A stretch of DNA of 63,123 bases, filler included, from Dirinaria sp. TL-2023a (taxonomy: Eukaryota), in the NCBI GenBank assembly GCA_051941275.1. It is 49 parts of 49 records of this genome, joined end to end, with 100 filler letters (N's around TTAATTAATTAA, not from the genome) between each part and the next. Parts side by side here need not be neighbours in the genome. Positions count along the whole stretch, not along the records: positions 2,637 to 3,853 come from JAVEBF010002895.1; 48 more parts are not named here. One strand, given 5' to 3'. The notes under the pieces are model-generated. The model saw nothing but the letters and a program-made list of their open reading frames with translations, ran no database searches and was not told the origin of the DNA. Positions 1,843-4,028 of the stretch are shown here, one piece after another. The position numbers were made by a program, and so were the translations under genes. Numbering within the stretch: the first letter of the stretch is position 1; every line of letters starts with the position of its first letter.

Positions 1843-2694
1843 TAAAAAAAGAAATTATTTTCTCATAAATTTTATATCAACTTCGAATAATTTGGTTGCC
1901 TCAAATATCAATAGCTTGCGTTAGCAGCATTTTAAGAATTTGCGAAATATATACTAATAGTCGTGTGCTTTTTGAGTAAGTTCGTATTGATCTTCTATAT
2001 TGACTTTAGGGCGTAGAAGATTCGACAATACGTTGAAGACTGCGATAACAGCTGCTCGGTTTACTGACTTCTTCACAGCTAAGATCTCTGAATGCTTAGA
2101 CGGATGACATGCGAGAATCCTGTCTGCGATCTGTTTGTGAAGTTCATAGAAGAAGACTTTGTCATCTTCTTTGTGCAGCTTGACTGCAGACTCGACCAAG
2201 TAGAAAAGATAGGGCGTAAGATAGTGTAAAAGATCAACCGCAATCGCGGTCATTGCAATTTTTACTTGAAGGAGATAATAATTTATTAGTTCGATGCCTG
2301 CGATGAATCGAAATAATTGATGTGATATCGATAAATCTTTGATTATGGTATAGTTCTGTGAGACGATTTGCAGACTCAAATGATTTTCGTGTCCGTATTA
2401 CAAGCCTGCGAGACATCATTTAATAGTATCTGCTTCAACAGCATTCTTTTCGGTTTTTACATCCGCGTCTTGCTTCTTATTCGCATGTGCCTCATTGAAT
2501 GAAGCTGGGACCGTGAGGCGCAATTCTAGTTTGGAGNNNNNNNNNNNNNNNNNNNNNNNNNNNNNNNNNNNNNNNNNNNNTTAATTAATTAANNNNNNNN
2601 NNNNNNNNNNNNNNNNNNNNNNNNNNNNNNNNNNNNGAGTAGGAGTCAAAGTGATAGCGCAACTGCTTAAGCACTTGCAATTATCATTGAGCTA

Positions 2695-2723
2695 TAGATA
2701 ATTGGAGTGTAATTTGATATAAT
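2695..2723 (+). promoter_or_regulatory. Putative sigma70 promoter of the panA operon
   Basis: TAGATA (2695-2700), 17-bp spacer, extended -10 TGaTATAAT (2715-2723), 37 nt before the ATG at 2761. Confidence 0.55.
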
Positions 2724-2760
2724 AAGAGCATATGTTTGTATTGGATTGTGAGAAGACTAA

Positions 2761-3303
2761 ATGGACGATACAAGACAACAGGCGAAAGAATTGGTTTGCA
2801 CAATAATAGCCGTAACAGGCGGAGAACTCCATAAAAAAGTCGCTCTGTTCAAAGCATTCTACTATGCACACTTGTTTTACTGGCAAGAACACCAAGAAGC
2901 GCTTACAGACCATCCGATAGTAAGAATGCCACAAGGGCCTGGGATTGACGACCATACTTCCATCTTACGTGAACTAGAGGGCGAAGCTCGGATTGAGATC
3001 AGGCGAGAGCCTTATGGTCCATACCAAGAATATGTGTACAAACTAAAAAGCCCCTTCACCATTGATCCTGGTTCGCCCCATCACACTGCTGTGGAGCGGG
3101 CAGTGAAGTGGGTTCAAGGTAAGAGTGCAATGGAATTATCGGAGGAGGCCCACGACTACTCGCGGAGTTGGCAGATTGGTCAGGACGGACAGGAACTTAA
3201 CATCTATATCGATCTGCTTGATGACGCAGAATACGTCGAAATGAATAGACGCTTACGCGCTTCTGAGGAAATGGTGAATGACGTCTTTGCAGAAGTCGGC
3301 TAG
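2761..3303 (+). CDS. panA: Bacterial Panacea-domain (DUF4065/SocA-like) antitoxin, 180 aa
   Basis: Intronless; KVALFKAFYYAH, RMPQGPG (GPV-like motif) and SAMELSEEAHDYSRSW...GQELNI match the Panacea motif order. Confidence 0.8.
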   Translation: MDDTRQQAKELVCTIIAVTGGELHKKVALFKAFYYAHLFYWQEHQEALTDHPIVRMPQGPGIDDHTSILRELEGEARIEIRREPYGPYQEYVYKLKSPFTIDPGSPHHTAVERAVKWVQGKSAMELSEEAHDYSRSWQIGQDGQELNIYIDLLDDAEYVEMNRRLRASEEMVNDVFAEVG

Positions 3304-3628
3304 AATTATTCTCAGCGGTATTGAACTTTATCTACGCGAGAAAGTCACGCCGGCCAAAGCGCTTATCGCAATGGGTTGGCGTGACTTTCGTTCGGCGGAC
3401 CGCCCTGAGACTGCTGATGTAGTGGCAATGGCTTGTGAAGCGTTCGTCTATTTGTCCATCAATGAAGACGGTCACTGGAACGGAACGGTCAATGTGTTGA
3501 CCGCCATCAAGAGACAAACGGCACATGCGTCGTCTTCTGAAGATCTAAGACGATTGGCAGCACTCCTCCGAGCGAGGCCGGTTTCTGTGGATGACGTAAG
3601 AGATTGGTTCAATAGCGTGTACGGTTGA
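3278..3628 (+). CDS. Hypothetical 116-aa protein, candidate toxin partner of PanA
   Basis: Overlaps the panA end by 26 nt, GAGG upstream of the ATG, same strand; no family recognised. Confidence 0.65.
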   Translation: MTSLQKSARIILSGIELYLREKVTPAKALIAMGWRDFRSADRPETADVVAMACEAFVYLSINEDGHWNGTVNVLTAIKRQTAHASSSEDLRRLAALLRARPVSVDDVRDWFNSVYG

Positions 3629-3649
3629 GCGGCTATTACTCCCGCTTGC

Positions 3650-3763
3650 CTGATCCAGTTCTTCGAGTACTTCCACGGCGACAACGGCGCCGGCATCGGC
3701 GCCTCCCACCAGACCGGCTGGACCGGCCTTGTCGCCAAAATCATCGAACAAAGCGGAGCATAA
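3650..3763 (+). pseudogene. Orphan 3'-terminal fragment (37 codons) of a bacterial GH63/MGH1-like glucosidase
   Basis: Translates [39 protein letters not shown]-rich, C-ending codons; no start codon, upstream stop at 3626-3628; not in the ORF track. Confidence 0.8.
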
Positions 3764-3783
3764 GGGTTTCCAACCCGCTTTTC
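3764..3783 (+). terminator. Weak hairpin followed by a T-run, possible terminator
   Basis: GGGTT-TCC-AACCC then GCTTTTCT directly after the TAA at 3763. Confidence 0.3.
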
Positions 3784-4028
3784 TGGGAATGAATAAATCA
3801 GATATAGCCTTCTTCACGAAACAAAATCGGGATGGAGACCGTCTCCTCATAAGNNNNNNNNNNNNNNNNNNNNNNNNNNNNNNNNNNNNNNNNNNNNTTA
3901 ATTAATTAANNNNNNNNNNNNNNNNNNNNNNNNNNNNNNNNNNNNNNNNNNNNGTCTGAGAAACAGAGACCCATTATGATCAAGAAAACGCATTTTCTTG
4001 ACGTTTAAATTTGATAATCACGTGATTA

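What the first reader, a model, noticed from the sequence alone, without database searches (positions are those of the whole stretch)
2695..3628. Bacterial Panacea antitoxin coupled to an unrecognised 116-aa ORF: candidate new toxin-antitoxin pair
Seen: a promoter with a perfect extended -10, an intronless 180-aa ORF with Panacea motifs, and a second ORF overlapping it by 26 nt. Established: Panacea/DUF4065 (PanA, SocA) antitoxins are hyperpromiscuous and sit in two-gene operons with many unrelated toxin folds. Inference: the downstream protein has no RelE/ParE, MazF, PIN, Fic/Doc, toxSAS or MqsR motif that I can see and looks mostly helical, so it may be an undescribed PanT toxin or phage-defence effector. 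The antitoxin has GPG in place of the usual GPV, no N-terminal PAD/HTH extension and an acidic C-terminal helix.
Basis: partly seen in the sequence, partly recalled or inferred. Interest (0 to 1): 0.85.

Follow-up and report, generated by a model that had tools for sequence, protein, structure and literature searches.

The report
Panacea antitoxin with motif-less Doc-like partner
A short bacterial contig inside a mixed assembly carries a conserved two-gene module, a Panacea-type antitoxin and a small helical protein that looks like a Doc toxin without its catalytic motif, so it is a variant of a known toxin-antitoxin type and whether it is toxic is unknown.

Summary
On a 1,217-bp piece (2637-3853) of a window made of 49 concatenated short contigs, I confirmed three things:
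- a promoter-like site with an extended -10;
- a 180-aa ORF (2761-3303);
- a 116-aa ORF (3278-3628) that overlaps the first by 26 nt.

ORF1 is a divergent Panacea (PF13274) protein. Its own match is E 1.1e-4, 2.2 bits under Pfam's cut-off, and 28 of 33 relatives match.

ORF2 is not an orphan. It has 78 representative clusters at E<=1e-3, none with a Pfam name. An ORF2-like gene abuts the 3' end of the PanA-like gene in 63 of 80 metagenome loci.

ORF2 is probably not a new fold. Its confident model (pLDDT 96) has P1 Doc as best match among 48,161 PDB chains, though weakly (Z 6.3). Its profile aligns end to end with a Doc profile (hhalign 77.7%, E 1.9e-5; 0 of 200 shuffled controls reach this). 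The Fic motif HPFxDGNKR is gone: His, Asn, Lys and Arg are all lost.

In 24 of the 63 loci the partner gene is convergent, often sharing overlapping stop codons.

The closest known system is the validated Corynebacterium doosanense Doc:PanA(Phd-C). I rate this a new variant of a known kind. Toxicity and binding are untested.

The parts
2637..3853 (.). The native contig (1,217 bp, GC 0.484) that carries the module. It is bounded on both sides by artificial N/TTAATTAATTAA linkers.
   Evidence: (piece map)
2695..2723 (+). Sigma-70-like promoter match: -35 TAGATA, 17-nt spacer, extended -10 TGaTATAAT (2715-2723).
   Evidence: 10 of 12 positions, TG present. This is a consensus match only; no transcription data.
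2678..2704 (.). Inverted repeat CAATTATC / GATAATTG (8 nt, 100% complementary, 11 nt apart) overlapping the -35. A direct repeat ATTGGAGTGT / ATTGGATTGT lies at 2701-2710 and 2740-2749. These are candidate operator sites (inference only).
2761..3303 (+). ORF1, 180 aa: a divergent Panacea (PanA-like) protein. It has a winged-helix-like N-terminal half, a strand carrying G59-P60-G61, and a long acidic C-terminal helix (residues 155-179).
3265..3269 (+). GAGGA Shine-Dalgarno for ORF2, inside the 3' end of ORF1 and 8 nt before the ATG.
   Evidence: sequence read
3278..3628 (+). ORF2, 116 aa: a soluble seven-helix protein of an unnamed family. It is a remote Doc/Fic-fold relative with a degenerate Fic motif. 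Residues D63-G-H-W-N-G68, a gap, then T69-V70 stand opposite H-P-F-V-D-G-N-K-R.
3647..3763 (+). Remnant of another gene: the last 38 or so codons plus the stop (TAA 3761-3763) of an MGH1-like/GH63 glycoside hydrolase of about 900 aa. It is in frame with ORF2 and starts about 20 nt after the ORF2 stop. It marks the right-hand edge of the module.
3764..3786 (+). Terminator-like hairpin GGGTTTCCAACCC followed by GCTTTTCTGG, directly after the hydrolase remnant.
   Evidence: 1 found; shuffles give a mean of 0.9, so not above chance

Best explanation
The piece is bacterial DNA carrying an autonomous two-gene module of the PanA-PanT kind.

ORF1 is a Panacea-domain antitoxin-type protein: a globular Panacea core plus a long acidic C-terminal helix. 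ORF2 is a small soluble protein derived from the Doc/Fic (Fido) fold. It has lost the catalytic HPFxDGNKR loop, so it cannot work as a Doc-type kinase or AMPylase.

By analogy with the validated Corynebacterium doosanense Doc:PanA system, where a C-terminal 'Phd-C' helix pair of PanA plugs the Doc active-site groove, I infer two things. The C-terminal helix of ORF1 binds the groove of ORF2 and holds it inactive. If ORF2 is released, it acts by binding a target rather than by catalysis, or through a site not yet recognised.

Shown here: both families exist; their adjacency is near-obligate; ORF1 is related to Panacea; the Fic motif is absent.
Supported but not proven: ORF2 descends from the Doc fold.
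Inferred only: the two proteins bind, ORF2 is toxic, and the module has any role in addiction or defence.
For: ORF1 is Panacea-like.
- PF13274 matches the whole profile at E 1.1e-4.
- 28 of 33 relatives match, best 7.3e-9.
- The model (pLDDT 90.2) has a central helix 26-44 and strands 53-56 and 59-62 carrying GPG. This agrees with the published description of the fold (passages of PMC8832971).

ORF2 is a real, conserved family.
- 78 representative clusters at E<=1e-3 and 24 at E<=1e-10, mostly 115-125 aa.

The pairing is conserved.
- An iterated HMM finds an ORF2-like gene abutting the 3' end of the PanA-like gene in 63 of 80 metagenome loci.
- 10 of the 17 misses have under 150 bp downstream or run off the contig.
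- Flanking genes differ from locus to locus. They include MmeI-type restriction-modification domains in 3 loci, a STAND-kinase, a CAP12 TIR effector, AIPR, an integrase, a transposase and NikA, beside housekeeping genes. These come from 81 neighbours in 23 loci.
- In the window the module abuts a truncated GH63 gene, as expected of an inserted element.

ORF2 links to Doc.
- The best of 48,161 PDB chains is 3dd7_A Doc: Z 6.3, rmsd 3.5, 98 residues aligned, model 10-116 against chain 1-123. Further Fic chains follow: 4u04_A at Z 5.1 and 3se5_A at Z 4.5.
- hhalign of A2 against 29 Doc proteins gives probability 77.7%, E 1.9e-5, 110 columns.
- That Doc alignment hits P1 Doc at E 3.5e-25, so it is the right family.
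- Controls all fall short: reversed profiles 0.1-0.3%, 100 column shuffles at most 9.8%, 100 block shuffles at most 58.1%.

Precedent.
- Doc:PanA is experimentally validated and is neutralised by a C-terminal Phd-C element of PanA (passages of PMC10440598; PMC8832971).
Against: - The Doc link is weak on each line taken alone. Z 6.3 is within the range common for helical models and only 0.5 above a bromodomain.
- Foldseek finds nothing at E<=0.001.
- An hhalign probability of 77.7% is below the usual 90-95% comfort level.
- No sequence-to-profile hit links ORF2 to Doc or Fic. Pfam shows none at E<=1. None of the 62 members has a Fic or Doc match at E<=0.01; one stray match each to two unrelated families. 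My own Doc HMM finds nothing at E<=10.
- The family has no invariant column. Its best-conserved residues are hydrophobic or aromatic (A52, L93, W110), so nothing marks it as an enzyme or a toxin.
- 24 of 63 pairs are convergent, which is not the bicistronic layout of type II toxin-antitoxin pairs.
- ORF1 scores below Pfam's gathering cut-off.
- The published work reports that eight predicted PanTs were not toxic in E. coli (PMC8832971).
- No relatives of either protein were found in the plasmid or phage collections, nor of ORF1 in viral contigs. Mobility on such elements is therefore not shown.
Confidence: 0.5

Rival explanations
1. The pair is a conserved two-gene module but no longer a poison-antidote pair. 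ORF2 is an inactive Doc-fold pseudo-enzyme retained as a non-toxic binding partner of the Panacea protein, for example a co-regulator, sensor or decoy. The module would then act in regulation or sensing, not in growth arrest.
For: - The Fic motif is lost and no catalytic residue is conserved.
- The convergent layout in 24 of 63 loci removes transcriptional and translational coupling. The orientation changed at least 2 and most parsimoniously 4 times on the PanA tree.
- The N-terminal half of ORF1 is winged-helix-like: Z 7-8.3 to PadR, MarR and similar regulators.
- Repeats overlap the promoter.
- The NetFlax authors themselves propose a sensory role for Panacea (passage of PMC10440598).
Against: - Near-obligate adjacency, variable flanks and frequent defence or mobile-element neighbours look like a selfish or defence module.
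- Non-enzymatic toxins exist, so lack of a catalytic motif does not show harmlessness (established knowledge, not tested here).
- Restriction-modification pairs are often convergent, so orientation does not exclude an addiction module (recalled knowledge; only a search listing seen).
Confidence: 0.27
2. ORF2 is a new toxin or effector fold unrelated to Doc, and the Doc resemblance is a chance arrangement of helices.
For: - Foldseek finds no PDB match at E<=0.001.
- The VIA Z of 6.3 is not separated from unrelated helical proteins.
- No HMM-level match to any family.
Against: - Two independent methods pick the same family out of very large sets. Doc is rank 1 of 48,161 chains and covers nearly the whole of both proteins.
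- The profile-profile alignment spans 110-129 columns in the same register and beats 200 of 200 shuffles and the reversed controls.
- Doc is a toxin type already known to pair with PanA.
Confidence: 0.18
3. The genes belong to the eukaryotic (fungal) genome to which the public record assigns them, having arrived by horizontal transfer.
For: One source names the gene model P0001 (109 aa, covering ORF2 residues 32-113) as a hypothetical protein of a fungal metagenome-assembled genome.
Against: - The piece is only 1,217 bp with no eukaryotic flank.
- It has a bacterial promoter-like site, a Shine-Dalgarno and overlapping ORFs.
- Every named relative carries a bacterial name (Chthonomonadales for an ORF1 relative, Humisphaera for an ORF2 relative); the rest are unnamed metagenome or genome sequences.
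- The flanking hydrolase remnant is 52-80% identical to the C-termini of proteins of about 900 aa in 13 of 151 sampled prokaryote genomes.
- The published survey found the only 'eukaryotic' PanA to be contamination (PMC8832971 section 5).
Confidence: 0.03

Closest known systems
[quoted passage not shown] 2022, PMC8832971; Ernits et al. 2023, PMC10440598; passages read)
   Same: A Panacea-domain protein is encoded next to a small Doc-fold protein. The PanA has extra C-terminal helix beyond the Panacea core; in the published system that element neutralises Doc. The unit is a two-gene chromosomal module.
   Different: - The published Doc keeps the active-site residues and inhibits translation. 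ORF2 and its whole family lack His, Asn, Lys and Arg of the Fic motif.
- ORF2 is detectable as Doc-like only by profile-profile and fold comparison.
- Here 24 of 63 pairs are convergent.
- I could not compare sequences directly, because no sequence of the published pair was available to me.
Phage P1 Phd-Doc (PDB 3dd7, 3k33)
   Same: It is the best structural match of the ORF2 model: Z 6.3, 98 residues aligned. The size (116 against about 126 aa) and all-helical architecture are similar. In P1 the antitoxin acts through a C-terminal helix.
   Different: - No Fic motif.
- No HMM-level sequence similarity.
- The partner is a Panacea protein, not Phd/YefM or AbrB. The 29 Doc loci I sampled mostly had AbrB-like antitoxins upstream, judged by eye.
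SocA-SocB of Caulobacter (founding Panacea antitoxin, PF13274)
   Same: ORF1 matches the SocA_Panacea profile.
   Different: SocA works as a proteolytic adaptor for ClpXP (passage of PMC8832971). There is no evidence for that here, and the partner is unrelated to SocB as far as tested.
Fido superfamily members without a canonical Fic motif, such as AvrB (Kinch et al. 2009, PMC2686095; only the search listing and the start of the abstract seen; the AvrB detail is partly recalled)
   Same: A Fic/Doc-type fold can persist without the HPFx[D/E]GN[G/K]R motif.
   Different: AvrB is a secreted plant-pathogen effector. ORF2 is a small cytosolic partner of an antitoxin-type protein.

Membership tests
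Panacea / DUF4065 (PF13274), PanA antitoxins | The protein itself scores above Pfam's curated cut-off for PF13274 | tested here: not met
   23.5 bits against a cut-off of 25.7, E 1.1e-4, profile positions 1-112 of 113. This is a near miss over the full domain.
Panacea / DUF4065 (PF13274), PanA antitoxins | Homology of its family to the Panacea profile | tested here: met
   28 of 33 family members match PF13274 at E<=0.01, best 7.3e-9, and no other family matches. Precomputed PF13274 labels appear on 9 of the 33 hits.
Panacea / DUF4065 (PF13274), PanA antitoxins | Fold: a central conserved helix, surrounding helices, and a small sheet with a conserved GPV strand (as described in PMC8832971) | tested here: met
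   The AF2 model (pLDDT 90.2) has helix 26-44, strands 53-56 and 59-62 carrying G59-P60-G61, and further helices. G59 is invariant and P60 at least 90% conserved. The third residue is G, not V. No solved chain titled as a Panacea or PanA protein appeared in the Foldseek or VIA lists, so the fold was not compared with one.
Panacea / DUF4065 (PF13274), PanA antitoxins | Encoded in a conserved two-gene locus with at most 100 nt between the genes (criterion of PMC8832971) | tested here: met
   63 of 80 loci have the partner overlapping or within 30 nt. The window pair overlaps by 26 nt.
Panacea / DUF4065 (PF13274), PanA antitoxins | Binds and neutralises its partner | not testable with these tools
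   Needs co-expression and pull-down experiments.
Doc / Fic (Fido; TIGR01550, PF02661) | Fic motif HxFx(D/E)GN(G/K)R | tested here: not met
   In the hhalign register, Doc H-P-F-V-D-G-N-K-R faces ORF2 D63-G-H-W-N67-G68-gap-T69-V70. Across 131 family sequences, none of the positions facing His, Lys or Arg is conserved as such. In the Doc alignment F, D, G, N, K and R are invariant and H at least 90% conserved.
Doc / Fic (Fido; TIGR01550, PF02661) | Sequence-to-profile match to a Fic or Doc model | tested here: not met
   No Fic or Doc hit at E<=1 in Pfam or NCBIfam. None of the 62 members has a Fic or Doc hit at E<=0.01. My own Doc HMM finds nothing at E<=10.
Doc / Fic (Fido; TIGR01550, PF02661) | Profile-profile homology | tested here: inconclusive
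   hhalign probability 77.7% (local) and 79.1% (global), E 1.9e-5 and 1.9e-6, over 110-129 columns. 0 of 200 shuffles and neither of the 2 reversed controls reach it. It is still below the usual 90-95% level.
Doc / Fic (Fido; TIGR01550, PF02661) | Fido fold | tested here: inconclusive
   VIA-align over 48,161 chains puts 3dd7_A Doc at rank 1 (Z 6.3, rmsd 3.5, 98 aligned), with 4u04_A at Z 5.1 and 3se5_A at Z 4.5. Z under 8 is common for helical models. Foldseek finds nothing at E<=0.001.
Type II toxin-antitoxin system | Bicistronic operon | tested here: inconclusive
   The window pair is co-directional and overlapping, as are 39 of 63 pairs. The other 24 of 63 are convergent.
Type II toxin-antitoxin system | Toxicity of one partner, relieved by the other | not testable with these tools
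   Needs expression assays.

The most novel reading that the evidence does not exclude
A widespread, unnamed family of Doc-fold proteins has lost the Fic active site yet stays locked to one PanA subfamily. Its gene orientation has flipped several times, to a tail-to-tail layout with shared YTAR stop codons. If so, this is a toxin-antitoxin-derived system whose 'toxin' acts without catalysis, for example by sequestering the ancestral Doc target or by serving as a decoy or sensor in phage defence. It would not depend on co-transcription of the two genes.
Probability: 0.3. Interest if true: 0.6.

Novelty: new variant of a known kind. Interest (0 to 1): 0.45.

Why it matters
- Panacea antitoxins are known for pairing with many toxin folds, and Doc is one validated partner. 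This would be a sizeable environmental lineage, with 78 representative clusters, in which the Doc-like partner kept the fold but lost the chemistry.
- That makes it a natural test of whether a toxin-antitoxin pair can persist with a non-catalytic partner.
- Repeated switching between operonic and convergent layouts is unusual for type II pairs. It bears on how such modules are regulated.
- The case also shows bacterial contamination annotated as a fungal protein in a public record.

Tried and rejected
- **Complex prediction.** Complex prediction on ORF1 plus ORF2 returned 'no answer' (score 0.00, controls not run, my alignments not used). It says nothing about binding either way.
- **Protein Atlas.** Both look-ups failed because the sequences are not held.
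- **Cluster members.** I therefore could not check whether the family is among the 88 published PanT clusters or the NetFlax nodes. Those supplementary datasets were not opened and may already list it.
- **Own genome.** No whole genome is held for the window.
- **Word-index searches for ORF2.** These found only its own gene model, plus 9 more with the profile, all unnamed or called 'hypothetical protein'.
- **Reciprocity test.** Searching the ORF2 profile in 401 genomes of the one phylum I had a handle for found nothing. This is uninformative, since no genome known to hold the family was included.
- **Viral contigs.** The ORF2 alignment is too variable to make patterns, and ORF1 patterns found no relative.
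- **Plasmid and phage collections.** No tblastn match for either protein.
- **PDB sequence searches.** Nothing significant for either family, with best E 0.6 and 0.2.
- **pdb_via second look for ORF2.** Nothing above Z 5.1.
- **ORF1 fold searches.** They gave only generic winged-helix matches, plus a chain of the DarTG complex (7yk3_D, Z 7.8, 127 aligned). I did not follow this up.
- **ORF1 C-terminus against Doc antitoxins.** I looked at the antitoxins upstream of 29 Doc genes for a C-terminal element like that of ORF1. By eye they end in ...F/Y..LA(E/K) and ORF1 relatives in ...VN..F. That is too short and vague to count as evidence.
- **Two long hits.** P0055 and P0067 in the representative search are repeat proteins (LapA and similar) and were set aside as spurious.
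- **Earlier findings of this scan.** None were returned.
- **Literature.** Searches for a motif-less Doc with Panacea, and for convergent type II toxin-antitoxin pairs, returned nothing on point. These two searches of the held library are the only basis for saying I found no prior description.
Full report
**What the window is.** The 63,123-base window is not one locus. It is 49 pieces of 1,162-1,218 bp, sorted by length and joined by N runs around TTAATTAATTAA. The finding lies on piece 2637-3853 (1,217 bp, GC 0.484). Nothing outside that piece is native context.

**The observation.** ORF1 (2761-3303, 180 aa) and ORF2 (3278-3628, 116 aa) are as described and overlap by 26 nt. The promoter-like site TAGATA-17-TGaTATAAT at 2695-2723 matches 10 of 12 positions. 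A GAGGA lies 8 nt before the ORF2 start. An 8-nt perfect inverted repeat and a 10-nt direct repeat surround the promoter. They may be operators, but that is inference only.

**ORF1.**
- Pfam gives only PF13274 SocA_Panacea, over profile positions 1-112 of 113, at E 1.1e-4. The 23.5 bits are below the 25.7 cut-off.
- NCBIfam and PADLOC give nothing useful. PHROGs gives one family of unknown function.
- The word-index search found 33 matches of 175-227 aa (38-66% identical apart from the window's own protein). Nine carry a precomputed PF13274 label. One is named by a source as a SocA-domain antitoxin of a Chthonomonadales bacterium.
- Scanned one by one, 28 of 33 family members match PF13274 at E<=0.01, best 7.3e-9, and no other family matches.
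- The AF2 model (pLDDT 90.2) shows a central helix (26-44), a small sheet whose strand 59-62 carries the invariant G59-P60-G61, further helices, and a long C-terminal helix 155-179 of lower confidence. This fits the published description of Panacea, with GPG for GPV (passage of PMC8832971).
- Fold searches return only generic winged-helix regulators for residues 1-107 (Z 7-8.3). One chain of the DarTG complex also appears.
- I file ORF1 as a divergent Panacea protein.

**ORF2 is a family, always next to this PanA subfamily.**
- ORF2 has no match in Pfam, NCBIfam, PADLOC or PHROGs.
- The word-index search found only its own gene model P0001, which one source names as a hypothetical protein of a fungal MAG.
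- The exhaustive HMMER search over 1.84 billion representatives found 78 clusters at E<=1e-3, 24 at E<=1e-10 and 1 at E<=1e-30. Nearly all are 90-130 aa.
- Two long hits are repeat proteins and were set aside.
- An alignment of 62 members (A2) has no invariant column. None of the 62 has a meaningful Pfam match.

To test pairing I fetched 80 metagenome loci encoding ORF1 relatives; these were the best 80 of the 96 confirmed.
- An HMM of the ORF2 family found an adjacent ORF2-like frame in 45 of 80.
- After three rounds of adding the new members, it found one in 63 of 80.
- Of the 17 misses, 10 have under 150 bp downstream or run off the contig.
- Two more misses (L024, L025) have a co-directional 116-aa ORF that looks related by eye but is below threshold.

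Flanking genes are not conserved. Among 81 neighbours from 23 longer loci I found the following:
- MmeI-type restriction-modification domains (3 loci);
- a kinase-STAND NTPase;
- a CAP12/Pycsar TIR protein;
- AIPR;
- an integrase;
- NikA plus a DDE transposase;
- housekeeping genes as well, including sigma-70, DnaN and TyrRS.

So the pair is an autonomous two-gene unit, often but not always in defence-like or mobile surroundings. In the window its right edge is the last 38 or so codons of an MGH1-like/GH63 hydrolase of about 900 aa. That remnant is in frame with ORF2. It is 52-80% identical to the C-termini of such proteins in 13 of 151 sampled genomes, and Pfam confirms the family. This suggests insertion into that gene, or an assembly join.

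**An unexpected layout.**
- In 39 of the 63 linked loci the partner is co-directional, as in the window. In 24 it is on the opposite strand, tail to tail.
- These are true homologues. First-round scores reach 38 bits with the GW/L.DF, A..A and C-terminal W motifs aligned. Their codon-position GC pattern (gc1 above gc2) fits the minus strand being the coding strand.
- In 10 of the 24 the two stop codons share a YTAR tetranucleotide. In 6 the genes overlap further. In 8 they are 4-30 nt apart.
- I built a maximum-likelihood tree of 60 PanA-like proteins: 37 co-directional including the window and 23 convergent. Four of the 64 rows were dropped as identical or truncated. On this tree the orientation label needs 4 changes, and well-supported branches force at least 2. 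None of 500 label shuffles is as low.
- The orientation therefore flipped more than once while adjacency was kept.

**What ORF2 is.**
- The AF2 model from A2 is very confident (pLDDT 96.0, pTM 0.88) and consists of seven helices. ORF2 is soluble, with a maximum 19-residue hydropathy of 1.07.
- Foldseek finds nothing in the PDB at E<=0.001.
- The Foldseek-independent search of 48,161 chains ranks Doc of phage P1 first. 3dd7_A gives Z 6.3, rmsd 3.5 and 98 aligned residues, model 10-116 on chain 1-123. Two other Fic proteins score Z 5.1 and 4.5. Bromodomains and other helical proteins follow closely, from Z 5.8 down. On its own this is not convincing.

I then collected Doc genes with TIGR01550 from 301 genomes. 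111 genomes had a match and 84 were over the cut-off.
- I extracted 29 Doc proteins, aligned them (A3) and confirmed that the alignment hits P1 Doc at E 3.5e-25.
- hhalign of A2 against A3 gives probability 77.7%, E 1.9e-5, over 110 columns. The global mode gives 79.1% over 129 columns.
- Controls fall well short: reversed profiles 0.1-0.3%, A1 against Doc 0.1%, 100 column shuffles at most 9.8%, and 100 shuffles of 10-column blocks at most 58.1%.

Two independent weak signals thus point to the same family, and that family is already known as a PanA partner. I put Doc-fold ancestry at about two in three.

In the alignment the Doc loop H-P-F-V-D-G-N-K-R faces ORF2 D63-G-H-W-N67-G68-gap-T69-V70. 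Across 131 family sequences the positions opposite His, Lys and Arg are not conserved. In the Doc set, F, D, G, N, K and R are invariant and H at least 90% conserved. The best-conserved ORF2 residues are A52, L93 and W110, followed by A55, F37, G33 and D36. ORF2 therefore fails the defining feature of Fic/Doc enzymes. I do not file it as a Doc toxin; at most it is a Doc-fold derivative.

**Mechanism.** Published work validated a Doc:PanA pair in Corynebacterium doosanense. It showed that two extra C-terminal helices of that PanA ('Phd-C'), and not the Panacea core, neutralise Doc by occupying its active site (passages of PMC10440598; PMC8832971). ORF1 likewise has a long acidic helix (residues 140-180, pI 4.05) after the Panacea core.

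My best reading, at confidence 0.5, is that ORF1 binds ORF2 through this helix. ORF2, if active, would work by binding rather than by phosphorylation or AMPylation. Binding and toxicity are inferred, not shown. The one complex job gave no verdict and is reported only under Tried and rejected.

The main rival (0.27) is that the partner is no longer toxic and the pair serves regulation or sensing. The loss of the motif and the convergent layouts favour this rival. A truly new fold (0.18) and a eukaryotic origin (0.03) are less likely.

**Origin.** Several features mark the piece as bacterial DNA binned or annotated with a fungal assembly:
- a bacterial promoter-like site, a Shine-Dalgarno and overlapping ORFs;
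- named relatives that are bacterial, with the rest unnamed metagenome or genome sequences;
- a bacterial-type hydrolase remnant.

The published survey met the same situation with its only 'eukaryotic' PanA.

**Novelty and limits.**
- I found no description of a motif-less Doc-like PanA partner, or of convergent PanAT pairs, in two literature searches.
- I could not open the published cluster tables or obtain accession numbers, so the family may already sit among the 41 unannotated PanT clusters.
- No relatives were found in the phage, plasmid or viral-contig collections.
- The reciprocal test, whether ORF2 relatives always sit next to PanA, could not be done.

**Verdict.** This is a real, conserved module. 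It is a new variant of a known kind and of moderate interest.

Noticed in passing
window 1-63123: The window is 49 unrelated contigs of 1,162-1,218 bp (GC 0.30-0.54), sorted by length and joined by N runs around TTAATTAATTAA. Any feature spanning a linker is an artefact.
   Followed up: yes
window 3647-3763: The last 38 or so codons of an MGH1-like/GH63 glycoside hydrolase of about 900 aa follow the ORF2 stop in the same frame. The rest of the gene is missing. It is either an insertion scar or an assembly join.
   Followed up: partly
P0001 (gene model on window 3278-3628): A public source holds a 109-aa eukaryote-style gene model covering ORF2 residues 32-113, named as a hypothetical protein of a fungal MAG. 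It is probably a bacterial contaminant annotated as fungal.
   Followed up: partly
L029, L030, L035, L037, L054, L061, L069, L071, L074, L079 (junction at the PanA stop codon): In 10 of the 24 convergent pairs the two genes end on a shared YTAR tetranucleotide (CTAG, TTAG, CTAA or TTAA), so their stop codons overlap on opposite strands.
   Followed up: partly
L012 805-1188, L013 2760-3143, L008 3377-3682: The ORF2-like gene appears split by a stop into two frames (L012 and L013, near-identical loci) or shortened (L008). These are possible decayed copies.
   Followed up: no
L032 3544-4266: Downstream of the PanA-like gene there is a 241-aa ORF instead of an ORF2-like gene. By eye it carries Panacea-like motifs (a possible tandem PanA), but it has no Pfam hit at E<=0.001.
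   Followed up: partly
ORF1 model m66391d8f8d07: A chain of the M. tuberculosis DarTG toxin-antitoxin complex (7yk3_D) gives the longest structural alignment with ORF1 (Z 7.8, 127 residues, model 5-158). It is also among the top Foldseek rows (probability 0.84).
   Followed up: no
window 2678-2749: A perfect 8-nt inverted repeat (CAATTATC / GATAATTG) and a 10-nt direct repeat (ATTGGAGTGT / ATTGGATTGT) bracket the promoter-like site. These are possible autoregulatory operators for the winged-helix-like half of ORF1.
   Followed up: no
L011, L016, L058: MmeI-type restriction-modification genes lie beside the pair in 3 of the 23 longer loci. This is the only neighbour type that recurs.
   Followed up: no
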